Assembly (NCBI GenBank): GCA_028277795.1
Contig: JANQFP010000207.1
Coordinates: 83,804 to 147,803, forward strand
Source of the DNA: Rhodospirillales bacterium
Lineage (GTDB): Bacteria > Pseudomonadota > Alphaproteobacteria > Rhodospirillales > JANQFP01
Direction of reading: 5' to 3'
DNA: 64,000 nt
Each line of letters begins with the position of its first letter. Position 1 is the first letter of the stretch. Of this stretch, positions 15,104-50,399 are shown piece by piece. Both the position numbers and the translations under genes were made by a program. Below the pieces are notes generated by a model. The model made no database searches. It saw only the letters and a program-made list of their open reading frames with translations, and had not been told where the DNA came from.

Positions 15104-15279
15104 ATCCGGGTGGATCGGAGGCGTCGCGCGCGCCCCGTCGGGGGGACCCGCGGACGGTCTCAGTGTTGGTTGCCGATTGGCGCGGGATCCCCAACCCGGC
15201 GGTCGAATCGCACTTTGTTCAACGAATCGATTGCTGGTAGGGTCAAGGGTCCGGGCGAGGTTTGCGGGACGGTGATCAA

Positions 15280-16881: not shown

Positions 16882-16909
16882 CAAACCTGATCCGGGGAAC
16901 ATCGGCAGC

Positions 16910-23615: not shown

Positions 23616-23920
23616 TGGCCGGGTCCTGGTCTAAGCGAATCGCGGGGCGTCGGGTCAGGCGGTCTGCGCTGGGGATGTCGAGCGTATAATACGGCAATCC
23701 GCCGGACTTTCTCCGTCGTTGGCGCCTCCGGGCAGTCGGTGCTTGACAAAAGTGTTCGTGGCGTGAACGCTGGCACTCGCGTGGACACGGCATGGTCGGG
23801 CGGCAGGCACGTCACCCGGAATGCGGTAGCGTGGGCCGCCGGGATCGACGGCTGGCGCGCGCGATGGGACGGCTGGTCATGGTGCCGTCCCCTGAGAGTT
23901 CCCTATTTGCTTTCCACGAT

Positions 23921-25165: not shown

Positions 25166-25180
25166 GGAAAACCGGGCATA

Positions 25181-26506: not shown

Positions 26507-26523
26507 GGCGTGGACGGCGCTTC

Positions 26524-28386: not shown

Positions 28387-28425
28387 GTCCGCGCACGCCG
28401 CTGCGGCGACGGAGGGGCTCCTGAG

Positions 28426-29406
28426 ATGCCGCTGAACGGCAAGTCGGTCCTGATCACCGGTGGCACTGGGTCTTTCGGCCGGCGGTTCATGGAACTGGTT
28501 CTGGCGCAACATCAGCCGAAGAAGCTGATCGTGTTCAGCCGCGACGAGCTGAAGCAGGACCACATGCGCCAAGCCTACGCGGCGGACGGAAACACGCCTG
28601 TCCGCTACTTCGTCGGCGACATCCGCGACAAGGAGCGGTTGCACCGTGCTTTCCATGACGTCGACGTGGTGATCCACGCGGCCGCGCTCAAGCAAGTGCC
28701 GGCGTGCGAGTACAACCCCTTCGAGGCGGTGCAGACCAACATCCTGGGAACCCGCAATGTCATCGACGCAGCCATCGACTGCGGCGTTAGAAGGGTCCTG
28801 GCGCTAAGCACGGACAAGGCTGTCAACCCGGTTAACCTCTACGGCGCCACCAAGTTGTGCGCCGAGAAGCTGGTGGTCCAGGGCAACTCCTATTCGAGCG
28901 TCGAGCGGACCCGCTTCAGCTGCGCCCGCTACGGCAACGTCGTCGGCAGCCGGGGCAGCGTCATCCCCCTGTTTCTCCGTCAGCGGATGAACGGTCGGGT
29001 GACCGTGACTGATCCGCGGATGACCCGGTTCTGGATCACCCTGGACCAGAGCGTGGCATTCATCATCCGGTGCCTGGACATGATGCAGGGCGGCGAGGTG
29101 TTCGTGCCCAGGATCCCGAGCATGGGCATCATGGACCTGATCGAAGCCGTGGCCCCGGACTGCGAGGTCGAAGCCATCGGCATTCGTCCGGGCGAGAAAA
29201 TCAACGAACTCCTGATTTCGCCGGATGAGGCACGGCATACATTCGATTTGGGCGACATGTACGTCATCTACCCGGCGTTCAAGGAATGGCACATGGACCT
29301 GCCGAAAGGGGCCCAGCCGTTGCCCGTCGATTTCGCCTACTCCAGCGACACCAACGACGACTGGCTGAGCCCGGCGCGTCTGCGCGAGCTCGTGGCCGAT
29401 CTTTGA
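28426..29406 (+). CDS. pseB: UDP-N-acetylglucosamine 4,6-dehydratase (inverting), PseB/FlaA1-like
   Basis: VLITGGTGSFG, FSRDELKQ, GDIRD, YGATKLCAEK (YxxxK), and a length of about 326 aa. The other pse genes are in the same locus. Confidence 0.8.
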   Translation: MPLNGKSVLITGGTGSFGRRFMELVLAQHQPKKLIVFSRDELKQDHMRQAYAADGNTPVRYFVGDIRDKERLHRAFHDVDVVIHAAALKQVPACEYNPFEAVQTNILGTRNVIDAAIDCGVRRVLALSTDKAVNPVNLYGATKLCAEKLVVQGNSYSSVERTRFSCARYGNVVGSRGSVIPLFLRQRMNGRVTVTDPRMTRFWITLDQSVAFIIRCLDMMQGGEVFVPRIPSMGIMDLIEAVAPDCEVEAIGIRPGEKINELLISPDEARHTFDLGDMYVIYPAFKEWHMDLPKGAQPLPVDFAYSSDTNDDWLSPARLRELVADL

Positions 29407-29562: not shown

Positions 29563-31095
29563 ATGCCCTTGCGGAAAGTGATGCTGATCCACCCGGCGCC
29601 CATCTCCCAGATGCCGTCGGGCATCGGGTATTTGGCCGCGATCCTGGAGATGCGCGGAATCGAGGTTTCGATTCTGGTCAACAGCTTCCGCGCCCACATG
29701 AGCAACGAGGTCATCGCCGAGCGGGTCGAACGTGAGCGTCCGGACATTGTCGGCCTCAGCTTCGTCACCTGGAACCTGCTGGAAATCTACGACCTCATCG
29801 GCCGCCTCAAGGCGTTAGGGGTCACGGTCGTATGCGGCGGCGTGCACCCGACCGTTCGGCCGCGCGAATGCCTGGATGCCGGCGCCGACATCATCGTCCG
29901 CAACGAAGGGGAACATACGCTTGGCGAGTTGATCGACGTGTTAGCTGGAACGGAGGACCGGACCCTCGCCGAAGTGCCGGGCCTCGCCTACATGCAGGAC
30001 GGTGTCTATCAAGAGACCCCTGCGCGCCCCCGCATCAATGCCCTCGACGAGCTGCCGTTCCCCGCCCGCCACTTGTTCGATATCGATCAGTTCCGCGTTC
30101 CCGGCGGTGGGCCCAAGGGGTTCGAGCGCCTGTTCGCCGGGCGTGGTTGTCCGGCTCGATGCACGTTCTGCGACCGCTCAGTGTTCGGTTTCAAGTTCCG
30201 CATACGGAGCCCGGAACACTTGGTCGACGAAATCGAGCAGGTGCAGCGGGACTACGGCATCACGAACTTCAACTTCGGCGACGACACGTTGACGGTCAAA
30301 CGCGATTTCATGGCCGGGTTCTGCGAAGAACTGCGGCGGCGCGACATCCAGATCACCTGGAACGCGGCGACCCGCATGGACCGGGTCGACCAGGACCTGC
30401 TGCATCTGATGAAGAAGGCTGGCTGTTTCCAGGTGACCTACGGCCCGGAGAGCGGCGACCCCGAGACCCTCGAGCGGGTCAACAAGGGCATAAACCTCGA
30501 TCACATCTACCGCAGCGTCGAGATGAGCGCCGAGGCCGATCTCCGAGTGTATCTCAACTTCATGACCGGGTTCCCGTGGGAGACACCGAAACACGTGGAC
30601 CGAACCCTCAAGGTCATGAAGGATCTGGCTGAGGACACGTACTTGTTCCAGGTCTATGGCGCGGTCGTTCCCTATCCCAACACACCCATGTACGACGACT
30701 ATCACGAGGAGTACGGGTTTACCGACTGGTGGCTGCGGCCGGAGCACCAGAATGTGGGGATGGTCATCTACCAGAACGTCCCCGATCCGTACCGCTACAG
30801 CGTCTACTACCAGCGCAACCTGTTCGACGACACTTACATCTACAACGAAACCTTTTTCCGCTACACCTCGGAATTCAAAAAGAAAGTCAAAGAGTTGGCT
30901 TTCTTCGTGGGGCGGCATACCTTGGCCGCCCAGTACCGGTCGCGGGCCCGCCAACGGGCCATGTACGTCCTCGGACGGCTGTCGCGGGTGCTGTATGAGA
31001 TGAACCCGACTCTGGAGATGGCATTGGCTTCGGCCCTGAATCCCGGCAACCGGGTCCACGACTACCGCCAGCTTGGGTACTTCAGGCCGCGGTGA
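29563..31095 (+). CDS. B12-binding-domain radical SAM enzyme (class B, methyltransferase-like) 1
   Basis: N-terminal cobalamin-binding Rossmann-like segment (PDIVGLSFVTWN...VVCGGVHPT...DIIVRNEGEHTL). CxxxCxxC motif CPARCTFC (30148-30171). About 510 aa. Confidence 0.8.
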   Translation: MPLRKVMLIHPAPISQMPSGIGYLAAILEMRGIEVSILVNSFRAHMSNEVIAERVERERPDIVGLSFVTWNLLEIYDLIGRLKALGVTVVCGGVHPTVRPRECLDAGADIIVRNEGEHTLGELIDVLAGTEDRTLAEVPGLAYMQDGVYQETPARPRINALDELPFPARHLFDIDQFRVPGGGPKGFERLFAGRGCPARCTFCDRSVFGFKFRIRSPEHLVDEIEQVQRDYGITNFNFGDDTLTVKRDFMAGFCEELRRRDIQITWNAATRMDRVDQDLLHLMKKAGCFQVTYGPESGDPETLERVNKGINLDHIYRSVEMSAEADLRVYLNFMTGFPWETPKHVDRTLKVMKDLAEDTYLFQVYGAVVPYPNTPMYDDYHEEYGFTDWWLRPEHQNVGMVIYQNVPDPYRYSVYYQRNLFDDTYIYNETFFRYTSEFKKKVKELAFFVGRHTLAAQYRSRARQRAMYVLGRLSRVLYEMNPTLEMALASALNPGNRVHDYRQLGYFRPR

Positions 31096-31185
31096 CCTGT
31101 GCGGCGCCGCGCCACGGCAGACCGCCCACCAATCGCGAATATCCACTAGTTGGCGAACGAAGAACGGTGCAAGAGCGGCGTCCGG

Positions 31186-32697
31186 GTGCTGTTCAATTCT
31201 TACGAATTCCTGTTTTTGTTTCTGCCTTTCACGGCGGCAGGCTTTTTCGTCGTCTCGCGTCTGTCGAATACGGCAGGTGCGGCGTGGCTGGGGATGGCCT
31301 CGCTCGTCTTCTATGCCTGGTGGGACCTCCCCAACGTCGCGATCCTGGTCGCCTCGATCATATTCAACTTCCTCGTCGGATCTCGGCTGGCGAGACACTA
31401 TGGCGACTGGCCGATCCGTCGGATCCATCTTCTCCTGGGACTTGGCGTCGCGGGGGATCTCGCGCTCCTGGCCTATTTCAAGTATCTCGGGTTCCTCGTG
31501 GAGTCCTTCGCCACCATAACCGGGGTGAGGGCGGACTTCGCTGCCGTCGCGTTGCCCATCGGCATCTCGTTCTTCACGTTCACCCAGATTGCCTTCCTCG
31601 TGGACGCCGCGCGTGGGCAGGCCAAGGAATACTCGTTCGTCCACTATACGCTGTTCGTCAGCTTCTTTCCCCATCTGGTTGCCGGCCCAATCCTGCATCA
31701 CAGGGAGATGATGCCCCAGTTCGCCAAGGCCGCGACCTACCGGCCCCGCCTGGCGAGCCTAGCCGTTGGCGCCGGCATCTTCGTCCTGGGCCTCGCCAAG
31801 AAGGTCCTGCTCGCCGACAACATTGCGCCCGTCGCCGACAGCGTTTTCCTGCATGCCGCCACCACCCAACTGACCATCGCCGAGGCTTGGGTCGGCAGCC
31901 TGGCGTATACCTTGCAGATCTATTTCGATTTCTCCGGCTACTCCGACATGGCCATCGGATTGGCGCGGATGATCGGCATCCGCATGCCGCTGAACTTCAA
32001 TTCCCCGTACAAGGCCACCTCGATCATCGAGTTCTGGCGGCGCTGGCACATGACGCTGTCCCGTTTCCTGCGGGACTACCTGTACATCCCCCTTGGCGGC
32101 AACCGCAGTGGGTCGGTCCGGCGCTACGTCAACTTGATGGTGACCATGCTGCTGGGGGGCCTTTGGCACGGGGCGGGCTGGGCGTTCGTGTTCTGGGGCG
32201 CCCTGCACGGGGCCTACCTGGTGGTCAACCATTTCTGGCGCCGGATGAACGTCACCCTGCCGGTGTGGCCATCGGCGGCGCTGACGTTCCTGGCGGTCAA
32301 TGTGGCGTGGGTGTTCTTCCGTGCCGAGGACATGGACACGGCCGTCTCCATCCTCCGCTCCATGAGCGGCCTCAACGGCCTCGACCTGCCGCCCCGGTTC
32401 GCCGCCGGCCTCGACGGCGTGCCGCTGTTGCGGTTCACGGGTTTGTTTCACAATCAGGTCGTCGATCCCCTGCCCGCCATGGCGTGGGTGGCGGCGCTCC
32501 TCCTCGTCTCCTGGCTTGCACCGAACTCCCAGCAGATCTTCGGCCGCTACTGCCTGGCGCCGAGCGGCGAGGCGGCCGCCTGGAGCCGATGGCGCGTGCG
32601 ACCGGGCCTGGTCACGGGCGTGGTCGCCGGCATCGTGCTCGCGGTCTGCCTGACGGTTCTGCATGGCCCTTCCCCGTATCTCTATTTCCAGTTCTAG
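31186..32697 (+). CDS. MBOAT-family membrane O-acyltransferase (AlgI/DltB/PatA-like)
   Basis: VLFNSYEFLFLFLPF N-terminus. FSGYSDMAIG, YKATSIIEFWRRWHMTLSRFLRDYLYIPLGGNR with the catalytic His, and LLGGLWHGA. GTG 31186 is preferred over TTG 31150. Confidence 0.85.
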   Translation: MLFNSYEFLFLFLPFTAAGFFVVSRLSNTAGAAWLGMASLVFYAWWDLPNVAILVASIIFNFLVGSRLARHYGDWPIRRIHLLLGLGVAGDLALLAYFKYLGFLVESFATITGVRADFAAVALPIGISFFTFTQIAFLVDAARGQAKEYSFVHYTLFVSFFPHLVAGPILHHREMMPQFAKAATYRPRLASLAVGAGIFVLGLAKKVLLADNIAPVADSVFLHAATTQLTIAEAWVGSLAYTLQIYFDFSGYSDMAIGLARMIGIRMPLNFNSPYKATSIIEFWRRWHMTLSRFLRDYLYIPLGGNRSGSVRRYVNLMVTMLLGGLWHGAGWAFVFWGALHGAYLVVNHFWRRMNVTLPVWPSAALTFLAVNVAWVFFRAEDMDTAVSILRSMSGLNGLDLPPRFAAGLDGVPLLRFTGLFHNQVVDPLPAMAWVAALLLVSWLAPNSQQIFGRYCLAPSGEAAAWSRWRVRPGLVTGVVAGIVLAVCLTVLHGPSPYLYFQF

Positions 32698-32704
32698 GCC
32701 GCTG

Positions 32705-33841
32705 GTGACGGGGTCGCGGCGGTTCCTGACCGGGTTTGCCGGGGCCTGTCTTTTTGTCCTGTCGGCCGTCGCGGCCGTCAACTTCTCCGTCGATGTGGGC
32801 CGAATCTACCCGCCAGCCCATGGGGAACTGGACCAGTTCGCCACGGCCTACGTCACCCGGCTGCTCGGCAGCGAGCGCCGCCTCGTGGCCCCCGTGTTCG
32901 AGCGGGCGATCAAGCTGAAGCTCGCCGACATGTCGTCTGCGTCGTGTTTGGTGGTCGGCTCCAGTCATGAAATGCAGATATCGGTCGCGACCCTGCCGCG
33001 GTTAAAGGATTGGTGTCCGTCGTTAGCCAACGTCGCCGTGTCGGGAGGCAGCCTAGAGGATTTGATCGCGATGATGGGCAAGGCCTTGGCGAAACCCGGG
33101 GTGACGACGGTGATCCTGGGACTTGCACCGTGGTCGTTCCGCTACGGCGCGGACGAGCGGTGGGCGTTGCATCGCGACGCCTATGTAGAGGCCCGCGCGC
33201 GTCTCGGCCTCCCCATGCGGGCCGACGACGACTGGGGGGCACTGGCGAAGGTCGCGAACCTGGTCAGCGCTACCTACTTCCTGCGTAACTGGGAAGTCCT
33301 GCGCGGCACCCACAATCGCGCCGCGCCCGGTGAAGTCGTCGAGGCCCCGGCGGGAGCGGCGAACGCGCCGAATCAGGCCGCGACGTTCGACCACGACGGG
33401 GCCTATCGGTATCCACAGCGGTTTCTTGACCGGGGGTCACGGCCCGCTGGGAGGGTCGGCGACGGCAGTTACCGGATCGCCGAGCCCTTCATCGACAAGA
33501 CTGCCGCTGCGGATTTCGAGCTAGCCGTCTCGTCTTTGCAGCGTCACGACGTCGCGGTCGTGTTTCTGTTGATGCCCTACCACCCGAAGGTGCTGACCTG
33601 TTCGAACGAGACCGTATGCCAAGCGTTCAGAACCGTCGAGTCGTACGTCCGGCACCTGGCCGGCCGTCGCGGCATCAACGTGATCGGCAGTTACGACCCG
33701 TCGGCCTTCGGTCTCCAGGCCCGGGATTTCATCGACGACATGCACCTGGAACGATCGGCGATCCGCCATGTCGCGCCGCTCCCCCAAGGTTCGCCGGCCG
33801 GATCGCCGTCGCCCGGCGCCGGCGCTGTCATCTCGAGATGA
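32705..33841 (+). CDS. SGNH-like partner of the MBOAT (AlgJ/AlgX/DltD-type O-acyl transfer protein)
   Basis: N-terminal TM anchor (FAGACLFVLSAVAAVNF). SGNH-like blocks LVVGSSH, VSGGSLED and DDMHL. Lies immediately downstream of the MBOAT. The start is uncertain (GTG 32705 or upstream). Confidence 0.6.
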   Translation: MTGSRRFLTGFAGACLFVLSAVAAVNFSVDVGRIYPPAHGELDQFATAYVTRLLGSERRLVAPVFERAIKLKLADMSSASCLVVGSSHEMQISVATLPRLKDWCPSLANVAVSGGSLEDLIAMMGKALAKPGVTTVILGLAPWSFRYGADERWALHRDAYVEARARLGLPMRADDDWGALAKVANLVSATYFLRNWEVLRGTHNRAAPGEVVEAPAGAANAPNQAATFDHDGAYRYPQRFLDRGSRPAGRVGDGSYRIAEPFIDKTAAADFELAVSSLQRHDVAVVFLLMPYHPKVLTCSNETVCQAFRTVESYVRHLAGRRGINVIGSYDPSAFGLQARDFIDDMHLERSAIRHVAPLPQGSPAGSPSPGAGAVISR

Positions 33842-34012
33842 CAAGGCGGACCCGGTCGATTAGGGTGCTATTTCGAATGCACATCATTAGCAAGAAGCCC
33901 CTTCGAGCCTTGCGACCCTCTGAACTCTGCGGTTCCGTATGGTCGGATATCCAGCGGGAGCAAAAGTGGATGACGACCGTCGGGCCGCGATCGACATGAG
34001 GGTGAGCCTGCC

Positions 34013-35518
34013 ATGAAGCTTCTTCTTGTCTTTATGAACAACGAGTACCGGCCGTTCGTTCCGCCGACCCTGGTGAGCTTGGAGGGATACATCGAAGCCC
34101 ATGGCCACGAGGTCGAGGTGTTCGATACGTCGTTCCATGCCGAGATCCTCAATCTCGGGAATCTGGAGAGGAACATCGAGGCAGGCTTCGTTTTCGGCGT
34201 CGACTACTCGGGCGTCGGGGTCGAGATCAAACACGACTCGTTGCGGGACAAGTTCAAGCAGGCGATCGGCGATTTCCGTCCCGACCTCATCGGTTTTGGC
34301 GTCTACGGCACCACGATCGAGAAAGCGGACGAGTTGGCACGGTCGGCGAAGGAGGAGTTCCCGGGAATTCCGATCATTTACGGTGGGCCGGAGGTGGCGG
34401 TCGCCCCTGTGACGATTCTGCAGAAGGGCTGGGTAGACCTGATCTGTATCGGCGAAGGCGAGAAAGCGTTATTGGATGTCTGCAATCGCATCGATGCTGG
34501 GGAGTCCGATTTCTCCGGCATCCACAACATCTGGTTCTTGAACGACGGCGATATCCATCGATCGCGCTTGGGAGCGTTCATCGATCTCAACGACCTGCCG
34601 CCGCCGGATTGGAGCAGCTACGCCCCATACCATCATTACGGACCGATCGAGGGGAACGTCTATCGTCTGGCGATGGTCGAGTTTTCGCGAGGGTGTCCCT
34701 ACTCATGCACTTACTGTGAAAGCACGACCGTAAAGAACATGTACGCGAAGGATGGAATCACGAAATACAATCGCCGCAAGTCTCCCGAGAAATTCGTCAG
34801 TGATTGCGAGTTCCTTGTGAATGAATACGACGTTGAGTTCTTTTACTTCACGGATGGCACGTTCCTGACCATGCCGACGCCGGTTCTGGAGGAACTGGCG
34901 CACCTGTTCGCGAGCAGGGTCAACCGGCCCTTCCTCTGCCTGACCTCGCCCACCTCGGTCACCGAGGACCGGGCAAGGCTGCTCAAGAAAATGGGGTGTT
35001 ATCAGGCCAATATGGGTATCGAAGCCGGCGATCAGGATTACCGAAAGGACGTCCTGGGACGTCCCGGGGTCGGTGACGACGCGATCGTCCGGGCGTTCCA
35101 TGCCATGCAGAATCAGGGAATCCGTACCAGCGCCTACAACATGATCGGCATGCCCTGGCAGGACAGGAAGGACGTCTTCAAAACCATCGAGCTAACCAGG
35201 AAATGCGCGCCGACACGGACGAATTTGTCCATCTTTATGCCGTTCGAGGGAACCATTCTGACGGATAGGCTGAAGGAGGAAGGGTATATTTCTGCGGATA
35301 CCGTCCTTGGTGACGAATCCTCGTGCACAGTGGACGTGCCAGGCGACATGAGCACGGAGGAGATCCTGGGCCTCTACCGGACCTTCCAACTGTACTGCAA
35401 GGTTCCTAGAGAGCTTTTCCCGTTGCTCGAGGCGTGTGAGGCGGACAACGACACGTCGCGGTTCGTGATCAGCAAGCTGCGGCAGATCTACCTCGAGGAC
35501 CGGGGGCCCACCATTTGA
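34013..35518 (+). CDS. B12-binding-domain radical SAM enzyme (class B) 2
   Basis: N-terminal B12-like segment (PDLIGFGVYGTT...IIYGGPEV...DLICIGEGEKAL). CxxxCxxC motif CPYSCTYC (34694-34717). GC content looks lower than in neighbouring genes. Confidence 0.8.
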   Translation: MKLLLVFMNNEYRPFVPPTLVSLEGYIEAHGHEVEVFDTSFHAEILNLGNLERNIEAGFVFGVDYSGVGVEIKHDSLRDKFKQAIGDFRPDLIGFGVYGTTIEKADELARSAKEEFPGIPIIYGGPEVAVAPVTILQKGWVDLICIGEGEKALLDVCNRIDAGESDFSGIHNIWFLNDGDIHRSRLGAFIDLNDLPPPDWSSYAPYHHYGPIEGNVYRLAMVEFSRGCPYSCTYCESTTVKNMYAKDGITKYNRRKSPEKFVSDCEFLVNEYDVEFFYFTDGTFLTMPTPVLEELAHLFASRVNRPFLCLTSPTSVTEDRARLLKKMGCYQANMGIEAGDQDYRKDVLGRPGVGDDAIVRAFHAMQNQGIRTSAYNMIGMPWQDRKDVFKTIELTRKCAPTRTNLSIFMPFEGTILTDRLKEEGYISADTVLGDESSCTVDVPGDMSTEEILGLYRTFQLYCKVPRELFPLLEACEADNDTSRFVISKLRQIYLEDRGPTI

Positions 35519-35634
35519 GAACGACGGTCCGTCGCACCTGTTCGGCACCCGGACAACCGCGGTCGAGATACATCCGGTCGGTTCTGCTTTCCTGACGATC
35601 CTGGGCTTCCGGGCCCCGCTGCCATCGCGTTCCC

Positions 35635-36438
35635 GTGGTCGCACTTCAAGATAGACTGGTCGATACCTTCGCCGAGACATGGCGCGACTGCGGCGTGAGC
35701 GATGGTGATGTCCTGCTCGTGCACAGCAGCCTGCGGCGGACAATTAGGTCCGGTCGCCGAGTATGGAAGGGCGTGACCCCGACGACCATCGTCGAATCTT
35801 TGCTGGGCGCCGTCGGCGCCGACGGGACGCTTCTCCTTCCCCTGTTCAATTTCGGTTTCGCCGATGGCGCCGAGTTCGACATCCGTCACACGCCGTCGGA
35901 AATGGGCGCCCTGACTGAGGCCGGGCGTCTCTATCCCGGCGCTGTCAGGACCGGTCATCCGATCTACTCGTTCGCCGCGATCGGCGCCCAGGCGCCGCGG
36001 TTCGCGAAAGTGGTCAACTTCAGCGGTTACGGACCGGATTCGCCATTCGCCCTGTTGCGGGAACTGGGCGGAAAGATCGCTGTCCTCGACCTCCCGGAGG
36101 CCGGCAGCATGACCTTCTATCACCACGCCGAAGAGATGCACGCCGTTCCCTACCGGTACCACAAGACCTTCCGCGGTCCCTATACGACTTGGGATGGCGA
36201 AACCTCGGTGCGGGAATTCGGGCTGTTCGTGAGGGACCTGGAAGACGGTGTCGAGGCCCATCTGGACCCTATGGGGGAACTGGCGTGGCGGCACGGCCTG
36301 TATTCCGGCCACCGGGCGGGCACCGGCAGCGGCCTGCGCGTCGCATCGGCGCGGGCGCTGTACGACTTGGCGTCCTGGGTCATCACCTCGGGGGTCGCCG
36401 AGGGGACCCTCTACCGGAAACGGGAATCGGCGCGCTGA
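35635..36438 (+). CDS. AAC(3)-family (aminoglycoside 3-N-acetyltransferase fold) N-acyltransferase
   Basis: GVSDGDVLLVHSSLRR..., GTLLLPLFNF, TPSEMGALTE and HPIYSFAAIG are typical of the AAC(3)/YokD family. GTG start. Confidence 0.75.
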   Translation: MVALQDRLVDTFAETWRDCGVSDGDVLLVHSSLRRTIRSGRRVWKGVTPTTIVESLLGAVGADGTLLLPLFNFGFADGAEFDIRHTPSEMGALTEAGRLYPGAVRTGHPIYSFAAIGAQAPRFAKVVNFSGYGPDSPFALLRELGGKIAVLDLPEAGSMTFYHHAEEMHAVPYRYHKTFRGPYTTWDGETSVREFGLFVRDLEDGVEAHLDPMGELAWRHGLYSGHRAGTGSGLRVASARALYDLASWVITSGVAEGTLYRKRESAR

Positions 36439-37742
36439 TGGACTCGACCGACGACACGCGCGCGCTCGGCGAGACCATGTTCGGACGGGTGCGCGACCTG
36501 TTTCCCTACTGTCGCAGCATCACCGGCGACGGCGTGCGTCAGACGCTCCGGTACCTGCGCGACATCGTGCCCGAGATGGTCATTCACGAAGTTCCGTCAG
36601 GCACGGAGGCGTTCGATTGGACGGTCCCGGACGAATGGAACATCCGCGATGCCTATGTGGAGGACGAGACCGGCGAACGGGTCGTCGATTTCCGGGAAAG
36701 CAACCTGCATGTGGTCGGCTATTCGGAGCCGGTCGACCGGTGGCTCGATCTCGAGGACCTCGACCCGCACCTCTATTCCCTTCCGGAGTTTCCCGACGCC
36801 ATCCCGTACGTGACGTCCTATTACCGGCGCCATTGGGGATTCTGCCTCACCCACTCCAGGCGGCAGCAACTGGCGCCTGGGAGGTACCACGCGGTGATCG
36901 ACAGTACGCTGAAGCCCGGTCACCTGACCTACGGCGAAATCGTCATACCGGGAGACTCGGAGCAAGAGGTTTTGGTTTCTACCAACATCTGCCACCCTTC
37001 GCTCGCCAACAACGAGCTGTCAGGGCCGGCGGTCGCTACCTCACTTGCCGAGTGGCTGCGTGGGTTGCCGCGGCGGCGTTATACGCACCGTTTCCTATTC
37101 ATCCCGGAGACCATAGGATCCATCGTCCATCTGAGCCGCAACCTGGAGGTGATGCAGAGGACCACCGTCGCCGGATTCACCCTGACCTGTGTTGGCGACG
37201 ACCGTGCCTACTCGCTCAAGCGGTCGCGGCGCGGCGACACTCTGGCCGATCGGGTGGCCAAGCACGTACTGAACCAGCATGCGCCCGGCCACGTCGAATA
37301 CGCGTTCTCTGACTACGGTTTCGCCGACGAACGCCAATACTGCAGCCCGGGTGTCGATCTGCCCGTGGTGTCCCTGATGCGGTCGCGGCTCGCCGGCTAT
37401 CCCGAGTACCATACCTCGCGTGACAACCTGTCTTTCGTATCGCCGGGCGGGCTCCTGGGTGGGTTCCACGTGGCCAGGACGTGCCTTGAGATTCTCGACG
37501 GCAACTACGTTTACCGCACGGCGACTCTGTGCGACCCCCAGCTCGGCCGGCGAGGCCTCTACCCCAACCTCAGCACCCGCACCAGCCCCGAGCACACCCG
37601 GGTGATGATGGGAATCATCGCCTACGCGGACGGGAGCCGAGACATGGTGGAGATCGCCGACCTGATCGGCGCGGACGCCGCCGAATGCATCGCCATCGCC
37701 GAGCGGCTGCATCGGGCCCAGGTCATGGACCGGATGACCTGA
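36438..37742 (+). CDS. DUF4910/DUF2172 aminopeptidase-like (M28-fold) protein, copy 1
   Basis: MFGRVRDLFPYCRSITGDGVRQTLRYL...EVPSGTEAFDWTVPDEWNI...SLANNELSGPAV...RFLFIPETIGS. This is the COG4310-type 'aminopeptidase-like domain' protein. Start ATG shares 1 nt with the upstream stop. Confidence 0.7.
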   Translation: MDSTDDTRALGETMFGRVRDLFPYCRSITGDGVRQTLRYLRDIVPEMVIHEVPSGTEAFDWTVPDEWNIRDAYVEDETGERVVDFRESNLHVVGYSEPVDRWLDLEDLDPHLYSLPEFPDAIPYVTSYYRRHWGFCLTHSRRQQLAPGRYHAVIDSTLKPGHLTYGEIVIPGDSEQEVLVSTNICHPSLANNELSGPAVATSLAEWLRGLPRRRYTHRFLFIPETIGSIVHLSRNLEVMQRTTVAGFTLTCVGDDRAYSLKRSRRGDTLADRVAKHVLNQHAPGHVEYAFSDYGFADERQYCSPGVDLPVVSLMRSRLAGYPEYHTSRDNLSFVSPGGLLGGFHVARTCLEILDGNYVYRTATLCDPQLGRRGLYPNLSTRTSPEHTRVMMGIIAYADGSRDMVEIADLIGADAAECIAIAERLHRAQVMDRMT

Positions 37743-39136
37743 TGGCGATGTCGGCGATGCGGATCCTGGTCATCAGCCCGACGGCGGTGCCGGGCCACGA
37801 ACAGCGGAACCTTCAGCTCGTCCGCGAGTTGATCGACCGCGGCCATGATGTTGTCCATGCCGGTCCGACAGACGGACTCGAACGCCATGGGTTCACCCAA
37901 ATCCCATTTTCTCCGGACTTTGCCGACCGTCCCGAGGCCCGGGCGTGCAACACGCGGCTGTTTGCTACCTGGGAGGAACTGGCGAAGCTCGTGATCTGGT
38001 CCGACGTGGTCGTGATGGGTACGGCCAAAGGATATCGGACGGTGATGGACTACGCCCGGAAAAACGACCGCATTCTTATCCAAAATGACGATACCGGCGG
38101 CATTGATCAATTTACCTACAATGCCGATCTGGTGTGTGCGCGAAGTACCTGGGGACGCGACGTCCTGGTCGCCCTGGGATCCTTCGCTCCCGAAGACATC
38201 CACGTCACGGGATGCGTGCAGTTCGACCGGGCGGTGGCGCCGCCCCGCCTATCCCGTGACGGGTTCTGCCGCAAGTACGGGTGCGACCCGGACAAGCCCG
38301 TGGCCGTTTTCATGTCAACCGATCCCGGCGGACATTTTGACCACTATAAGAATTATTACAAAAAAGTATGCAGGATAGTGAATGATTGTTGTGAAATAAA
38401 ATTACTCATTAAACCTCATCCTCGGGAGTATGGTAGAAACAAACAACACTTCCATTATGAAAACACGACGATTCCAACTTGGGAACAACTTGCTCCCGGT
38501 ATTCCGGCATGCGAGTCGGAAGACGCCTACGAGTGCTTTCACCACGGAGATGTCTTTATAACAAGAGCGTCGTCTTCCGTGATCGAGCTGGCGATGTTTG
38601 GCAAGCCGGCGCTGGTTGTCGATGCGCCCGAGTTCTGGTTGCGTCCGGGCGAGGACTACGACTATTTCAAGAAAAACTTCCCGGGGCCGCGATTCTCCCC
38701 GCCGGGTCGAAAGAGTTGGCTGCCCATGGGCGTTATGACCGATTTGATTGATGAAATATCGGATGAAAACATTCGGAAAAGAACTAGAGAAATTCACTAT
38801 AGGCTATTGCGGATGTACGGTTGGACACCCTTCGAGTTCATAGGGTCCGAGTGCACATTGGAGGAGTTGCCCGATATCCTCGACAGCAAGAAGTATGAGT
38901 TCACCGATTCTCGGATCTTCAACGACTATGTCGAACGGTACTGCCATCATAGCGACGGCAAGGCGTACCAGCGTGTGGCCGACGTCGTCTCCGGGGTGGC
39001 GCAACACCCGGCGCTGCGTGAGAGGCTCGAACGATGCCGGGCTGGCCGCAGGCGGCAACAGGTCAAGCACTTGGTCACCGCGACCGTCCAGCGGGCCCGC
39101 CGTGCCACCCGGGGCATCCGCCAGTTGATGGCCTGA
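37742..39136 (+). CDS. Uncharacterised GT-B-like transferase (TagF/KpsS-like features)
   Basis: MRILVISPT... Rossmann-like N-terminal domain. C-terminal domain has LLIKPHP and GDVFITRASSSVIELAMFGKPALVV, reminiscent of CDP-glycerol glycerophosphotransferase and capsule KpsS-type enzymes. Contains two strongly AT-rich internal patches. Confidence 0.5.
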   Translation: MAMSAMRILVISPTAVPGHEQRNLQLVRELIDRGHDVVHAGPTDGLERHGFTQIPFSPDFADRPEARACNTRLFATWEELAKLVIWSDVVVMGTAKGYRTVMDYARKNDRILIQNDDTGGIDQFTYNADLVCARSTWGRDVLVALGSFAPEDIHVTGCVQFDRAVAPPRLSRDGFCRKYGCDPDKPVAVFMSTDPGGHFDHYKNYYKKVCRIVNDCCEIKLLIKPHPREYGRNKQHFHYENTTIPTWEQLAPGIPACESEDAYECFHHGDVFITRASSSVIELAMFGKPALVVDAPEFWLRPGEDYDYFKKNFPGPRFSPPGRKSWLPMGVMTDLIDEISDENIRKRTREIHYRLLRMYGWTPFEFIGSECTLEELPDILDSKKYEFTDSRIFNDYVERYCHHSDGKAYQRVADVVSGVAQHPALRERLERCRAGRRRQQVKHLVTATVQRARRATRGIRQLMA

Positions 39137-39170: not shown

Positions 39171-40205
39171 GTGAAGGTGCGCAAGTTCCTGGTTATCGGT
39201 TGTGGGTCCATCGGCACCCGGCATATCGTCAACTTGCTGGCCCTCGGTGCCGGCGAGATCGTGGCCTACGACATCCGCCCGGATCGCCGGGACGCCGTCC
39301 GGGCCAATCACGGCATCGCCGTGGTCGACACGCTTGAAGAGGGCTGGGCCGCCAATCCGGATGTTGCCGTCATCGCGTCCGATTCCAACACCCACGTGGA
39401 GCTGGCCCTCCAGGCATTGCGCCGAGGATGCCACCTGTTCATCGAAAAGCCGCTGTCGCACAGCCTCGACGGCGTCGACCGGCTGGTCCGCACGGCGGCC
39501 GAGGCCCAGCGCGTCGTTCTCGTAGGCTGCAACCTTCGTTTCAACCCCGGCCTGATCCACGTCAAGGCGCTGATCGGCGCCGGTGCCGTGGGTCGCGTCG
39601 CCGCCGCCCGTGCGGAGACGGGACAATACCTTCCCGATTGGCATCCCGAGCAGGACTACCGGACCGAGTACAGCGCGAGTCGGGAGAGAGGGGGCGGCGT
39701 GTTGCTCGATTCCGCCACCCACGAAATTGACTACCTGCGCTGGATGCTGGGCGATGTCGTGCGGGTGTCGTGTTTCCACGGCCATCTCAGCCATCTCAGG
39801 ACCGATACCGAAGATACGGCGGCGATTCTGCTCAGGTTCGCCTCCGGGGCCATCGGCGAGGTGCACGTCGACTACGTTCAACGGGTGTTTAGTCGGTCAC
39901 TGCACGTGATCGGTGATGAAGGGACCATCCGCTGGGACCATGACGCCAGCGAAGTGCGGTGGTACACGGCGGCGACACAACGGTGGCAACGCTTCGAAAA
40001 CCCGCCGGGTTGGCAACGGAACCAAAGCTTCGTGGACGAGATGGCGCATTTCGTCCGTTGCATAGCCGGCGAAGAACAGCCGGCCCAGGACTTGGTGGCG
40101 GCGGCGGACCTCCTCGCTATTGCCCTCGCCGCCCGGGAGGGCGGTGACTCGGCCGGTATCGAAACCCATTGGCAGCGTGACAGAAGGCGAGCGAGCGGTG
40201 GCTGA
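39171..40205 (+). CDS. Gfo/Idh/MocA-family NAD(P)-dependent oxidoreductase 1
   Basis: FLVIGCGSIGTRH Rossmann motif, LFIEKPL (the EKP motif) and the C-terminal GFO_IDH_MocA_C-like domain. Confidence 0.8.
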   Translation: MKVRKFLVIGCGSIGTRHIVNLLALGAGEIVAYDIRPDRRDAVRANHGIAVVDTLEEGWAANPDVAVIASDSNTHVELALQALRRGCHLFIEKPLSHSLDGVDRLVRTAAEAQRVVLVGCNLRFNPGLIHVKALIGAGAVGRVAAARAETGQYLPDWHPEQDYRTEYSASRERGGGVLLDSATHEIDYLRWMLGDVVRVSCFHGHLSHLRTDTEDTAAILLRFASGAIGEVHVDYVQRVFSRSLHVIGDEGTIRWDHDASEVRWYTAATQRWQRFENPPGWQRNQSFVDEMAHFVRCIAGEEQPAQDLVAAADLLAIALAAREGGDSAGIETHWQRDRRRASGG

Positions 40206-41289
40206 CAGGGTGCGATTGGGGTCGCGGCCTTGCGGTGACGGCGAGCCCTGCTGGATCGTCTTCGAAATCGGGGCCACCCACGACGGGGTGGACACGGCCC
40301 GCCGCCTTATCGACCACGCAGCGGAAGCCGGTGCCGATGCCGTCAAGTTCCAGATGATCGACCCGGACCGGCTCGTTGCCCGCCGGGAGATGACCTATAC
40401 CTACACGGTCCTCGCCGACCGCGAGACCGGGGCGACAGACACGGTGACCGAGCGCCAGTACGATATCCTGGCCCGCCGCGCCCTCGCTGCCGACGAGTGG
40501 GCCGTGCTCAAGCGCCATGCCGACGCTCTCGGCCTGGCGTTCTTTCTCACCGTCTTCTGGGACGACGAGATCGAGTTGGCGCGCGAACTCGGGTGTCAGT
40601 CCCTCAAGATCGCGTCCGGCGACGTGAACACGCTGCCGTTCATTCGGCGCGCCGCCCGCTCGGGGCTGTGCATCCAGCTCGACACCGGCAACGCCAGCCT
40701 GGGCGAGATCGAGGCCGCCGTCGACGTCATTCGGTCGGAGGGTAACAAGGACATCATCATCCACCAGTGTCCATCCGGATATCCGGCCCGCCTGGACGGG
40801 ATCAATCTCAGGGTCGTTCGGACCCTCAAGCAGATGTTCCACTGTCCGGCGGCCTTCTCCGATCACAGCCCGGGCTGGGACATGGACGTGGCGGCGGTCG
40901 CACTGGGCGCGAACCTGGTGGAAAAGACGGTGACTCTGGACCGGACGACGCGCAGCGTCGAGCACATCATGTCTCTGGAGCCGCCCGAGATGAAGCAGTT
41001 CGTGCGGCTGATCCGCTCGGTTGAAACAGCCTTGGGCGCGCCACGCCGTATCCTTAAACCGGAGGAAAGGGAGAGCCGTCTCCAGTTCCGGCGGAGTGCA
41101 TACTTGGCCGAGCCGGCCCGGCGCGACCAGAAAGTGAGCGACGTCGCGGTGATCTTCCGCCGCCCCGGGGACGGCATCGGCGGCGATGTCTATGAGACCC
41201 TGGTAGACCACAGGTTCCGCGAGGACCTGTCCGCCGGGCACCGGCTGTCCCTCGCCGACCTGCGTGATCCTGAGGGGGACACGACCTAA
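40198..41289 (+). CDS. Divergent NeuB/SpsE-family sugar-phosphoenolpyruvate condensing synthase (second paralog)
   Basis: TIM-barrel NeuB-like core (CWIVFEIGATHDGVDTARRLIDHAAEAGADAVKFQ, SLKIASGDV, FSDHSPG) plus a C-terminal SAF-like domain. The canonical NHNG motif is replaced by THDG. GTG 40198 overlaps the upstream stop. Confidence 0.7.
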   Translation: MADRVRLGSRPCGDGEPCWIVFEIGATHDGVDTARRLIDHAAEAGADAVKFQMIDPDRLVARREMTYTYTVLADRETGATDTVTERQYDILARRALAADEWAVLKRHADALGLAFFLTVFWDDEIELARELGCQSLKIASGDVNTLPFIRRAARSGLCIQLDTGNASLGEIEAAVDVIRSEGNKDIIIHQCPSGYPARLDGINLRVVRTLKQMFHCPAAFSDHSPGWDMDVAAVALGANLVEKTVTLDRTTRSVEHIMSLEPPEMKQFVRLIRSVETALGAPRRILKPEERESRLQFRRSAYLAEPARRDQKVSDVAVIFRRPGDGIGGDVYETLVDHRFREDLSAGHRLSLADLRDPEGDTT

Positions 41290-43009: not shown

Positions 43010-43013
43010 GCCC

Positions 43014-45968: not shown

Positions 45969-45972
45969 CGAG

Positions 45973-47722: not shown

Positions 47723-47745
47723 CGGCGGCAGCTGCGGAGGAGGAC

Positions 47746-48945: not shown

Positions 48946-48958
48946 CGCCTGAGGCGTT

Positions 48959-49588: not shown

Positions 49589-49589
49589 C

Positions 49590-50342: not shown

Positions 50343-50399
50343 GGGGGCATCATCCTGCTGGCCAAGCCCATCCTGACCGACCGACTTGTCCTACGCGCG

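What the first reader, a model, noticed from the sequence alone, without database searches (positions are those of the whole stretch)
29563..39136. Orphan tailoring cassette inside the pseudaminic-acid operon: twin cobalamin-type radical SAM enzymes, MBOAT/SGNH pair, AAC(3)-fold acyltransferase, aminopeptidase-like protein and a TagF/KpsS-like transferase
Seven co-directional genes lie between pseB (28426-29406) and the remaining pse genes (from 41289). None of them belongs to the canonical PseB-C-H-G-I-F route. Two ~500-aa proteins each combine an N-terminal B12-binding segment with a CxxxCxxC cluster (CPARCTFC at 30148-30171, CPYSCTYC at 34694-34717). This is the class B radical SAM architecture used to methylate unactivated carbons in aminoglycosides, fosfomycin and hopanoids. 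I am not aware of a characterised nonulosonic-acid or XrtA exopolysaccharide pathway that uses such enzymes. The cassette also includes an AAC(3)-fold N-acyltransferase translationally coupled to an M28-like DUF4910 protein. Together this looks like an undescribed route for C-methylated or unusually N-acylated amino-sugar decoration.
Basis: partly seen in the sequence, partly recalled or inferred. Interest (0 to 1): 0.8.

Follow-up and report, generated by a model that had tools for sequence, protein, structure and literature searches.

The report
Radical-SAM tailoring island in pseudaminic-acid locus
A 9.6-kb stretch inside a bacterial gene cluster for a sialic-acid-like surface sugar carries two vitamin-B12-dependent radical enzymes whose close relatives sit in the same kind of sugar cluster in many phyla, a link I found in no paper and which points to an unknown chemical decoration of these sugars.

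Summary
Seven co-directional, intact genes lie at 29563-39136, and both CxxxCxxC motifs are at the stated coordinates. The domain calls are right, except that the 'SGNH' call is only indirect and the 'TagF/KpsS' call is below threshold.

It is not one conserved cassette. It is a mosaic of four modules inside a pseudaminic-acid (Pse) type nonulosonic-acid (NulO) locus, next to a complete XrtA exopolysaccharide system.
- **Already NulO-linked.** The DUF4910 protein belongs to the CA_C2195/Cj1295 family, which is needed for an N-acyl variant of Pse in Campylobacter. The GT-B protein resembles Tannerella Pse/Leg transferases and always follows a CMP-sugar synthetase gene.
- **Accessory.** MBOAT plus a DUF1574-like partner is a common O-acylation pair.
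- **New.** Both B12-radical SAM proteims fall far below the cut-off of every curated family. Their close relatives sit in NulO loci across several phyla: 6 of 11 loci for rSAM1 and 4 of 5 contexts for rSAM2. Distant relatives almost never do (1 of 68).

No paper I could search links B12-radical SAM enzymes to NulO synthesis. The most likely function is C-methylation of a NulO intermediate or of its N-acyl group; this is inferred, not shown. New variant of a known kind; interest about 0.62.

The parts
29563..31095 (+). rSAM1: class B (B12-binding plus radical SAM) enzyme, 510 aa, CPARCTFC cluster motif at 30148-30171
   Evidence: Pfam PF02310 and PF04055. Best NCBIfam hits are ApyD 190 bits against a cut-off of 750 and BchE 189 against 481. 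718 homologues at E<1e-20, the best non-self at 56% identity. Close relatives sit next to PseB/PseC/PseG/NeuB.
31150..32697 (+). MBOAT membrane O-acyltransferase. The start is uncertain: TTG 31150, GTG 31186 or ATG 31294
   Evidence: PF03062 E=1e-34. DltB equivalog 172 bits against a cut-off of 375, so it is not DltB itself.
32663..33841 (+). Membrane-anchored partner of MBOAT, DUF1574-like, with GSS and DxxH motifs (SGNH-type)
   Evidence: No direct family hit. 26% identity, E=1e-23, to an MBOAT-adjacent PF07611 protein in L078, with VVGSSH and DDMH conserved. The single-sequence AF2 model was unusable.
34013..35518 (+). rSAM2: class B radical SAM enzyme, 501 aa, CPYSCTYC at 34694-34717. GC is 0.570 against 0.653 for the window
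   Evidence: Pfam. All NCBIfam hits are below cut-off. A tight clade at 50-63% identity. Four of the five contexts examined contain NeuB; the fifth has other NulO-type genes. In L079 and L080 the gene lies directly after Aminotran_3 and CTP_transf_3.
35635..36438 (+). AAC(3)-fold N-acyltransferase, not a resistance-type AAC(3)
   Evidence: PF02522 E=8e-30. Every AAC(3) NCBIfam model is far below cut-off, at best 85 bits against 270. PDB hits include FrbF (3SMA).
36438..37742 (+). DUF4910/DUF2172/HTH_47 metallopeptidase-like protein of the CA_C2195/Cj1295 family. Its start overlaps the AAC(3) stop
   Evidence: Full-length match to PDB 3K9T, E=1.5e-106. Family literature: PMC4000134 and PMC3068675.
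37742..39136 (+). GT-B fold protein with an invariant KPHP motif. Putative CMP-ulosonate transferase (TagF/BFO_1060-like). GC 0.570
   Evidence: Sub-threshold Glyphos_transf, BFO_1060 and TIGR04396 hits. Eight homologues by word search, 59 representative clusters at E<=1e-30. It follows CTP_transf_3 in three of three contexts. AF2 pLDDT 78.9; PDB neighbours are UDP-GlcNAc 2-epimerases and TagF.
23747..29406 (+). Upstream context: PseC, class III aminotransferase (AT3, 25181-26506), ABC exporter, PseB
   Evidence: NCBIfam: PseC 487 bits against a cut-off of 423, PseB 476 against 408, PRK06209-type aminotransferase, HepA/MsbA-like ABC.
39171..43009 (+). Conserved module: Gfo/Idh/MocA oxidoreductase, divergent NeuB-like synthase, PseF-like cytidylyltransferase, second Gfo/Idh/MocA oxidoreductase
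   Evidence: The same module is present in L001 at 48-57% identity, with the oxidoreductase and NeuB fused. NeuBx is 31% identical to the true PseI.
42840..53302 (+). Downstream Pse and tailoring genes: PseG, formyltransferase-GNAT fusion, formyltransferase-like, PIG-L deacetylase, PseI, WbuX/HisH/WbuZ acetamidino system, GNAT, formyltransferase, second DUF4910 paralogue (51932-53302)

Best explanation
The stretch is a mosaic tailoring island inside a Pse-type nonulosonic-acid (NulO) biosynthesis locus. That locus feeds an XrtA-associated surface polysaccharide.

Shown:
- The core pathway genes are present: PseB, PseC, PseG, PseI and a PseF-like cytidylyltransferase.
- The island consists of four modules with separate evolutionary histories.
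- Both B12-radical SAM proteins belong to uncharacterised clades whose close members are embedded in NulO loci in several phyla.

Inferred mechanism:
1. rSAM1 usually sits beside PseB, PseC or PseG. It most likely acts early, on the nucleotide-linked 6-deoxy-hexosamine intermediate.
2. rSAM2 usually sits beside the CMP-NulO synthetase and a class III aminotransferase. It most likely acts late, on the free or CMP-activated NulO.
3. Both most likely use SAM and methylcobalamin to add a methyl group to an unactivated carbon, either of the sugar backbone or of an N-acyl group.
4. The translationally coupled AAC(3)-fold acyltransferase and DUF4910 protein exchange an N-acyl group, as proposed for Cj1295 in Campylobacter.
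5. The GT-B protein transfers the CMP-activated product to the glycan.
6. MBOAT and its DUF1574-like partner O-acylate the exported polymer.
For: Gene map and core Pse genes above curated cut-offs. Full XrtA suite at 3.5-18.9 kb.

rSAM1:
- The closest locus, L001 (56% identity), reads PseC-ABC-PseB-rSAM1-SPASM-GT7-GFO::NeuB-CTP-GFO-AT3-PseG.
- Relatives from Verrucomicrobia, Syntrophaceae, Desulfonema magnum, Desulfarculia and Pelagibacteraceae (37-41% identity) also sit in Pse/NulO loci.
- A NeuB-family gene lies within 10 kb in 6 of 11 loci with at least 36% identity. The figures are 1 of 25 at 30-36% and 0 of 12 below 30%.

rSAM2:
- All five contexts examined for relatives at 53-62% identity are NulO-type, and four of them contain NeuB. 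In L079 and L080 the order is Aminotran_3, CTP_transf_3, rSAM2.
- None of 31 distant relatives shows this.

Gene fusions in related loci tie the partners to CMP-sugar chemistry: CTP_transf_3::Aminotran_3 and CTP_transf_3::rSAM-SPASM.

The best full-length solved relative of rSAM1 is QCMT (9CCB), a Csp3-methyltransferase. TokK, CysS and TsrM also match. A 2026 review calls C-methyltransferases by far the most represented group of B12-radical SAM enzymes.

Other modules:
- DUF4910 matches CA_C2195 (3K9T) at E=1.5e-106. Cj1295, of the same family, is required for di-O-methylglyceroyl-Pse.
- GT7 has an invariant KPHP motif and follows CTP_transf_3 in three of three contexts.
- TagB-like Pse/Leg transferases are genetically proven in Tannerella.
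Against: - No biochemical data exist for any of the seven proteins.
- Class B radical SAM enzymes also catalyse non-methylating reactions (BchE, HpnJ, OxsB). The top NCBIfam hits of rSAM1 are ApyD and BchE, and the top PDB profile hit is the dehydratase AprD4, over the radical SAM core only.
- The early/late assignment rests on gene adjacency in about 10 loci.
- 5 of 11 close rSAM1 loci show no NeuB within 10 kb.
- One Zn ligand of CA_C2195 (Asp195) is Asn in the window protein.
- GT7's fold matches UDP-GlcNAc 2-epimerases as well as it matches TagF. Distant relatives hit both Glyphos_transf and Epimerase_2.
- That Cj1295 belongs to the DUF4910 family is taken from the papers. It was not tested by sequence here.
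Confidence: 0.6

Rival explanations
1. The two B12-radical SAM enzymes act on the NulO pathway but do not methylate. Possible reactions are radical dehydration or deoxygenation (AprD4-like), carbon-skeleton rearrangement or ring contraction (OxsB/HpnJ-like), oxidative cyclisation (BchE-like), or epimerisation.
For: The best NCBIfam scores for rSAM1 are ApyD, BchE and HpnJ. The best PDB profile hit is AprD4 at E=1e-39, with OxsB at E=1e-30. SPASM radical SAM and MbnB-like oxidative enzymes recur in the related loci, which shows rich non-methyl radical or oxidative chemistry there.
Against: All those hits are far below family cut-offs. The AprD4 match covers only the radical SAM core. AprD4 is annotated as a diol dehydratase, and from memory it works without cobalamin, whereas both window proteins have a clear PF02310 domain. 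Methylases dominate the class. The best full-length solved relative is the methylase QCMT.
Confidence: 0.22
2. The radical SAM genes are passengers. They modify something other than the NulO, such as another sugar or lipid of the exopolysaccharide, or a peptide (a RiPP or a PEP-CTERM protein), and sit in the locus only because it is a recombination hot spot.
For: The top NCBIfam hit for rSAM1 is a RiPP enzyme (ApyD). rSAM2 and GT7 have GC 0.570 against 0.653, which suggests recent acquisition. L003 holds a 47%-identical rSAM1 relative with sulfotransferase, methyltransferase and transketolase genes and no NeuB within the 13.5 kb held. 5 of 11 close rSAM1 loci lack NeuB within 10 kb.
Against: The NulO association recurs across unrelated phyla and without XrtA genes. 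It disappears in distant relatives. No precursor-peptide context was seen. In L079 and L080, rSAM2 sits between the CMP-sugar synthetase gene and the acetamidino genes.
Confidence: 0.12
3. The GT-B protein (37742-39136) is not a glycosyltransferase. It is a nucleotide-sugar hydrolase or 2-epimerase (functionally NeuC/LegG/PseG-like) that supplies the substrate for the adjacent divergent NeuB-like synthase.
For: The top Foldseek hits are UDP-GlcNAc 2-epimerases. Distant family members hit Pfam Epimerase_2. The gene order GT7-GFO-NeuBx-CTP resembles neuC-neuB-neuA.
Against: GT7 itself has no Epimerase_2 or Glyco_tran_28 hit even at E<=10. Its weak hits go to Glyphos_transf, BFO_1060 and TIGR04396. 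One homologue carries a KpsC/KpsS domain. In three of three other contexts GT7 follows the cytidylyltransferase gene rather than preceding the synthase gene. Distant relatives score higher on Glyphos_transf than on Epimerase_2.
Confidence: 0.3

Closest known systems
Cobalamin-dependent (class B) radical SAM C-methyltransferases: GenK, Fom3, TokK, CysS, QCMT
   Same: N-terminal B12-binding Rossmann domain followed by a CxxxCxxC radical SAM core. QCMT (9CCB), TokK and CysS are among the best solved relatives. From established knowledge of gentamicin biosynthesis, GenK methylates C6' of an amino sugar alongside an oxidoreductase (GenQ) and class III-type aminotransferases (GenB). The pairing here is similar: rSAM with Gfo/Idh/MocA oxidoreductases and a class III aminotransferase.
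   Different: There is no membership in any curated family; all scores are 2.5- to 30-fold below cut-off. The genomic context is NulO biosynthesis, for which I found no described B12-radical SAM enzyme. Substrate and reaction are unknown.
Cj1295 / CA_C2195 (DUF4910-DUF2172-HTH_47) with the neighbouring N-acetyltransferase Cj1296/7 in the Campylobacter jejuni flagellin glycosylation locus
   Same: Same three-domain architecture and length (434 aa). Full-length match to CA_C2195 at E=1.5e-106. It lies next to an N-acyltransferase gene and close to pseB and pseC. Cj1295 is genetically required for the 5-N-(2,3-di-O-methylglyceroyl) form of Pse.
   Different: The acyl group here is unknown, and no acyl carrier protein gene is nearby. 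The Asp195 Zn ligand is replaced by Asn. That Cj1296/7 has the AAC(3) fold is from memory and was not tested. The window also carries a second, divergent paralogue.
Tannerella forsythia Tanf_01245 / BFO_1060 Pse and Leg-derivative transferases (TagB/TagF-like GT-B)
   Same: About 450 aa, GT-B/TagB-like, HP motif, encoded at the edge of the CMP-NulO biosynthesis genes.
   Different: Only 45 bits against the BFO_1060 model, whose cut-off is 200. It forms a small separate family of 59 representative clusters at E<=1e-30. Activity is untested, and an epimerase or hydrolase role is not excluded.
MBOAT plus SGNH-type partner O-acylation pairs (AlgI/AlgJ/AlgX, DltB/DltD, PatA/PatB)
   Same: An MBOAT gene followed by a gene for a membrane-anchored protein with GSS and DxxH motifs. 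The same MBOAT-DUF1574 pair occurs in related locus L078.
   Different: The partner hits no curated family directly. The DltB equivalog cut-off is not met (172 bits against 375). The acyl group and acceptor are unknown.
FrbF (FR-900098 pathway): AAC(3)-fold N-acetyltransferase acting on a CMP-linked amine
   Same: AAC(3) fold. FrbF (3SMA) is among the PDB hits at E=7e-12. From established knowledge, it shows that this fold can acylate a CMP-conjugated metabolite rather than an aminoglycoside.
   Different: Low similarity, and no phosphonate genes in the annotated part of the window.

Membership tests
Class B (cobalamin-binding) radical SAM enzymes | N-terminal B12-binding domain (PF02310) followed by a radical SAM core (PF04055) | tested here: met
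   Both proteins score above the Pfam cut-offs: 80.7 and 57.6 bits against 32.1; 91.8 and 72.4 bits against 29.5.
Class B (cobalamin-binding) radical SAM enzymes | CxxxCxxC motif that binds the [4Fe-4S] cluster | tested here: met
   CPARCTFC at 30148-30171 and CPYSCTYC at 34694-34717. The cysteines are invariant in both family alignments.
Class B (cobalamin-binding) radical SAM enzymes | Actual cobalamin binding and methyl transfer | not testable with these tools
   Needs reconstituted protein, UV-vis or EPR spectroscopy, and product analysis.
Any characterised B12-radical SAM equivalog (BchE, ApyD, HpnJ, HpnR, PhpK, AprD4, BzaD, QCMT, KedN5, TsrM-type and others) | Score at or above the curated NCBIfam cut-off | tested here: not met
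   Best for rSAM1: 190.6 bits against 750 (ApyD) and 189.2 against 481 (BchE). Best for rSAM2: 98.7 against 481.
Canonical pseudaminic acid pathway (PseB-C-H-G-I-F) | PseB, PseC, PseG and PseI equivalogs present in the locus | tested here: met
   PseB 476 bits against 408, PseC 487 against 423, PseG 251 against 154, PseI 488 against 340.
Canonical pseudaminic acid pathway (PseB-C-H-G-I-F) | PseF and PseH equivalogs | tested here: not met
   The cytidylyltransferase scores 171.8 bits against the 205.7 cut-off. GNAT proteins give only weak PseH hits, 31.6 against 93.1. Divergent counterparts are probably used.
Canonical pseudaminic acid pathway (PseB-C-H-G-I-F) | Any of the seven island genes is one of the six canonical enzymes | tested here: not met
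   No island protein matches a Pse equivalog.
CA_C2195/Cj1295 family (DUF4910-DUF2172-HTH_47) | Three-domain architecture with full-length similarity to CA_C2195 | tested here: met
   Pfam 335, 129 and 78 bits. 3K9T E=1.5e-106 over residues 10-430.
CA_C2195/Cj1295 family (DUF4910-DUF2172-HTH_47) | His189/Asp195/His324 metal site | tested here: inconclusive
   Both His residues are conserved. Asp195 aligns with Asn, and a Glu follows it.
CA_C2195/Cj1295 family (DUF4910-DUF2172-HTH_47) | Direct sequence similarity to Cj1295 itself | not tested
   No Campylobacter sequence was available. The link rests on PMC3068675, which places a Clostridium acetobutylicum flagellar-locus homologue in the Cj1295 family, and on PMC4000134.
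AAC(3) aminoglycoside N-acetyltransferases | Antibiotic_NAT fold (PF02522) | tested here: met
   104.6 bits against a cut-off of 25.
AAC(3) aminoglycoside N-acetyltransferases | Membership in a resistance-enzyme equivalog | tested here: not met
   Best score 84.8 bits against 270. It should not be read as a resistance gene.
MBOAT | PF03062 above cut-off | tested here: met
   120.7 bits against 27.
SGNH/DUF1574-type partner of MBOAT | Direct profile match | tested here: not met
   No Pfam or NCBIfam hit even at E<=10.
SGNH/DUF1574-type partner of MBOAT | Similarity to a bona fide member, with the Ser (GSS) and Asp-x-x-His motifs | tested here: met
   BLASTP E=1e-23 to the PF07611 protein of L078. 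VVGSSH aligns with VLGSSR, and DDMH with DGMH. That DUF1574 belongs to the SGNH clan is from memory.
TagF/TagB glycerophosphotransferases (PF04464) and BFO_1060 NulO transferases | Profile score above cut-off | tested here: not met
   PF04464 19-20 bits against 22.1. BFO_1060 45 against 200. TIGR04396 18 against 125.
TagF/TagB glycerophosphotransferases (PF04464) and BFO_1060 NulO transferases | GT-B fold with a conserved His-Pro motif | tested here: met
   AF2 pLDDT 78.9, pTM 0.81. TagF is among the top PDB matches at E about 5e-10. K224-P-H-P227 is invariant in the family.

The most novel reading that the evidence does not exclude
The NulO-associated B12-radical SAM enzymes C-methylate the terminal carbon of the sugar. 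The target would be C6 of the 6-deoxy-hexosamine precursor, which becomes C9 of the NulO. This would extend the backbone to ten or more carbons.

That would give a genetic basis for the CMP-activated 'higher-carbon' (C10) ulosonic acids detected by mass spectrometry in Magnetospirillum gryphiswaldense. Their free-sugar formulae form a CH2 ladder, C15H25N3O8, C16H27N3O8 and C17H29N3O8, and their genes are unknown.

The accompanying Gfo/Idh/MocA oxidoreductases and class III aminotransferase would then add a third amino group, following the logic of GenK, GenQ and GenB in gentamicin biosynthesis. The divergent NeuB-like synthase and cytidylyltransferase would handle the enlarged substrate.
Probability: 0.15. 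Interest if true: 0.85.

Novelty: new variant of a known kind. Interest (0 to 1): 0.62.

Why it matters
Nonulosonic acids cap flagella, capsules, S-layers and exopolysaccharides. Their chemical variants influence immune recognition, phage binding and surface charge. The known tailoring reactions are N-acylation, acetamidino formation, and O-acetyl or O-methyl addition.

If cobalamin-dependent radical SAM enzymes act on these sugars, that adds carbon-carbon bond formation, or other radical chemistry, to the set. The association is seen in Verrucomicrobia, Desulfobacterota, Pelagibacteraceae and other lineages.

It would also give concrete candidate genes for unexplained NulO masses seen in environmental surveys, including the reported C10 ulosonic acids. 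It would add a new substrate class for B12-radical SAM enzymology. Finally, the small GT-B family that always follows a CMP-sugar synthetase gene is a candidate for the scarce class of Pse/Leg transferases.

Tried and rejected
- **Characterised rSAM family unrelated to sugars.** Rejected: every NCBIfam equivalog is far below its cut-off.
- **One conserved seven-gene block.** Rejected: L001 shares the surrounding core but has only rSAM1 and GT7. No fetched locus has all seven genes.
- **AAC(3) as an antibiotic-resistance gene.** Rejected: it is below all AAC(3) cut-offs and translationally coupled to DUF4910.
- **Phosphonate P-methylation (PhpK-like).** No PEP mutase or phosphonate family appeared among the genes annotated.
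- **Metagenome scan with the rSAM2 clade alignment.** It returned only relatives at 31% identity or less. It was useless for synteny, so I used it as a negative control.
- **Single-sequence AlphaFold model of the MBOAT partner.** pLDDT was 36.8, so it could not be used for a fold search.
- **Exact-sequence cluster look-up.** It gave no names or accessions, so the source organism stays unidentified. The look-up of the 100% rSAM1 protein returned only a 2.9-kb Logan contig.
- **Promoter and terminator scan of 28-41.5 kb.** Nothing above the shuffled expectation.
- **GTDB scan with the rSAM1 motif.** It returned no Magnetospirillum locus, so the C10 link is not supported for rSAM1.
- **Foldseek on the GT7 model.** It could not separate TagF-like transferases from UDP-GlcNAc 2-epimerase-like enzymes.

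Full report
**1. Observation**

The window is 65% GC. The motifs CPARCTFC (30148-30171) and CPYSCTYC (34694-34717) are exactly where stated.

Pfam confirms most domain calls:
- B12-binding plus Radical_SAM in both ~500-aa proteins.
- MBOAT.
- The AAC(3) fold (Antibiotic_NAT).
- DUF4910, DUF2172 and HTH_47 in one protein.

The AAC(3) stop overlaps the DUF4910 start (TGATG). The DUF4910 stop overlaps the first ATG of the last gene. AAC(3)-DUF4910-GT7 is therefore a tightly coupled trio.

- The two radical SAM proteins share only 25% identity.
- The 'SGNH' gene has no direct family hit.
- The 'TagF/KpsS' call is below threshold.
- Two further genes lie before 41289: a Gfo/Idh/MocA oxidoreductase and a second NeuB-like synthase (39171-41289).

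**2. Context**

A complete XrtA/PEP-CTERM exopolysaccharide system lies upstream at 3.5-18.9 kb. The + strand then reads, in order:
- PseC, a class III aminotransferase (AT3), an ABC exporter and PseB.
- The seven island genes.
- Gfo/Idh/MocA oxidoreductase, divergent NeuB-like synthase, PseF-like cytidylyltransferase, second Gfo/Idh/MocA oxidoreductase.
- PseG, a formyltransferase-GNAT fusion, a formyltransferase-like protein and a PIG-L deacetylase.
- A true PseI and the WbuX/HisH/WbuZ acetamidino system.
- GNAT, a formyltransferase and a second DUF4910 paralogue.
- Glycosyltransferases and a carbamoyltransferase.

PseB, PseC, PseG and PseI exceed their curated cut-offs. The island therefore sits inside a heavily tailored Pse-type NulO locus.

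**3. The island is a mosaic, not one cassette**

The closest related locus is L001, a metagenome contig whose rSAM1 relative is 56% identical. It has the same core: PseC-ABC-PseB-rSAM1-(SPASM radical SAM)-GT7-GFO::NeuB-CTP-GFO-AT3-PseG. It lacks MBOAT, its partner, rSAM2, AAC(3) and DUF4910. No fetched locus contains all seven genes. rSAM2 and GT7 have GC 0.570 against 0.653 for the window, which suggests separate acquisition.

**4. The radical SAM proteins**

Neither belongs to a characterised family. The best NCBIfam scores are 190 bits against a cut-off of 750 (ApyD) and 189 against 481 (BchE) for rSAM1, and 99 against 481 for rSAM2. The solved relatives are AprD4 (core only), QCMT (9CCB), OxsB, TsrM, TokK and CysS.

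rSAM1 has 718 homologues at E<1e-20. Its close relatives sit in Pse/NulO loci in:
- a Verrucomicrobia MAG;
- a Syntrophaceae MAG;
- Desulfonema magnum;
- a Desulfarculia MAG;
- a Pelagibacteraceae SAG;
- an unclassified MAG.

They usually lie beside PseG, PseB or PseC. The Syntrophaceae locus L012 reads PseB-PseC-AKR-[CTP_transf_3::Aminotran_3]-PseG-rSAM1-?-methyltransferase-SPASM-GNAT-WbqC-PseI-second B12-rSAM.

As a control, I counted loci of at least 10 kb with a NeuB-family gene within 10 kb:

| rSAM1 relatives | loci with NeuB |
|---|---|
| at least 36% identity | 6 of 11 |
| 30-36% identity | 1 of 25 |
| below 30% identity | 0 of 12 |
| distant rSAM2 relatives | 0 of 31 |

rSAM2 belongs to a tight clade at 50-63% identity. 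All five contexts examined are NulO-type, and four contain NeuB. In L079 and L080 the order is DegT-MbnB-SDR-NeuB-acyl/formyltransferase-Aminotran_3-CTP_transf_3-rSAM2-WbuX-like-HisH-HisF.

Fusions tie these partners to CMP-sugar chemistry: CTP_transf_3::Aminotran_3 and CTP_transf_3::rSAM-SPASM.

**5. The other modules**

- *DUF4910.* It matches the solved CA_C2195 (3K9T) over its full length at E=1.5e-106. The structure paper proposed a role in modified-sugar biosynthesis, and its neighbourhood includes NeuB and a nucleotidyltransferase. The Cj1295 paper places a C. acetobutylicum flagellar-locus homologue in the same family. It also shows that Cj1295 is required for 5-N-(2,3-di-O-methylglyceroyl)-Pse. 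Cj1296/7, next to it, is annotated as an N-acetyltransferase. The AAC(3)/DUF4910 pair is thus a known kind of NulO N-acyl remodelling module. Its chemistry is unsolved.
- *AAC(3)-fold protein.* It is far below all resistance-enzyme cut-offs. FrbF, which acts on a CMP-linked amine, is among its PDB relatives.
- *GT7.* It forms a small family: 8 homologues by word search and 59 representative clusters at E<=1e-30. It has an invariant KPHP motif. It follows a CTP_transf_3 gene in three of three contexts. The model has a GT-B fold, with pLDDT 78.9. Its PDB neighbours are UDP-GlcNAc 2-epimerases and TagF. Distant relatives hit Glyphos_transf more strongly than Epimerase_2. Genetically proven Pse/Leg transferases of Tannerella are TagB-like with an HP motif. 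A CMP-ulosonate transferase is the best reading. A hydrolase or epimerase role is not excluded.
- *MBOAT partner.* It aligns at E=1e-23 to an MBOAT-adjacent DUF1574 protein, with the GSS and DxxH motifs conserved.

**6. Mechanism**

*Shown:* the architecture, the family placement and the genomic association.

*Inferred:*
- rSAM1 acts early, on a UDP-linked 6-deoxy-hexosamine.
- rSAM2 acts late, on the free or CMP-linked NulO.
- Both most likely act as cobalamin-dependent C-methyltransferases.
- AAC(3)/DUF4910 exchange an N-acyl group.
- GT7 transfers the product.
- MBOAT and its partner O-acylate the polymer.

The methylation call rests on two things. Methylases dominate this enzyme class, and the best full-length solved relative is a methylase. 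It is not tested.

**7. Literature and novelty**

Full-text searches gave nothing relevant for 'radical SAM' with 'nonulosonic', with 'pseudaminic acid' plus 'B12', or with 'pseudaminic' alone. A 2026 review of B12-radical SAM enzymes does not contain the words nonulosonic, sialic, sugar or polysaccharide.

Two mass-spectrometry studies report CMP-activated 'C10' ulosonic acids in Magnetospirillum gryphiswaldense, with no genes assigned. The published m/z values correspond to C15H25N3O8, C16H27N3O8 and C17H29N3O8, a CH2 ladder. C-methylation of the terminal carbon by a B12-radical SAM enzyme would explain such sugars. No link to this window is shown, however. The genome scan with the rSAM1 motif found no Magnetospirillum locus. 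I keep this only as the most novel reading not excluded.

**8. Verdict**

The island is a new variant of a known kind of system. It is a Pse-type NulO locus whose tailoring set includes two uncharacterised, NulO-associated B12-radical SAM clades, together with modules that are already known or ordinary.

Noticed in passing
window 51932-53302 (with 50343-51990): A second DUF4910/DUF2172 paralogue, with a Peptidase_M28 hit and no HTH_47. It is 27% identical to the first and lies directly after a GNAT and a formyltransferase. The locus therefore carries two 'acyltransferase plus DUF4910' units.
   Followed up: partly
window 39171-43009; L001 12011-14125: A second, divergent NeuB-like synthase. 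It is 31% identical to the true PseI and below both the NeuB and PseI cut-offs. It is flanked by two Gfo/Idh/MocA oxidoreductases and a PseF-like cytidylyltransferase. The module is conserved in L001, where the oxidoreductase and the synthase are fused. It may make a second kind of ulosonic acid.
   Followed up: partly
L012 6777-8861; L078 3430-5142; the context of P0139 (no DNA held): Gene fusions in related loci: CMP-sugar synthetase (CTP_transf_3) fused to a class III aminotransferase, and CTP_transf_3 fused to a SPASM radical SAM enzyme. They suggest these enzymes work on, or hand over, CMP-activated sugars.
   Followed up: partly
L005, L078, L079, L080, L161, L162: SPASM-type radical SAM proteins and MbnB/TglH/ChrH-family proteins recur in NulO loci of uncultivated bacteria, alongside the B12-radical SAM genes. 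None is present in the window.
   Followed up: no
window 25181-26506: A class III aminotransferase (PRK06209, glutamate-1-semialdehyde-aminomutase-like) lies between PseC and the ABC exporter. Homologues accompany the rSAM1 and rSAM2 relatives in most related NulO loci (77% identity in L001). Its role in NulO synthesis is unknown.
   Followed up: partly
window 53216-56000: GC drops to 0.537 at 54001-56000. A 453-aa minus-strand ORF (53216-54577) has no Pfam or NCBIfam hit.
   Followed up: no
window 3511-18862: A complete XrtA/PEP-CTERM suite: two amidotransferases, a stp1 glycosyltransferase, a FemAB-like protein, an ATPase, an outer-membrane protein, an export protein, a chain-length determinant, a tyrosine kinase, and exosortase A with an EpsI domain.
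   Followed up: yes
L029, L035, L044, L047 and others: Distant relatives of rSAM1 (at most about 33% identity) occur as arrays of 3-6 B12-radical SAM paralogues in Omnitrophota, Deltaproteobacteria, archaeal and unclassified MAGs. No NulO genes lie within 10 kb.
   Followed up: no
window 61092-62903: A carbamoyltransferase at the distal end of the locus. The same family lies near an rSAM2 relative in another NulO locus (the context of P0139).
   Followed up: no
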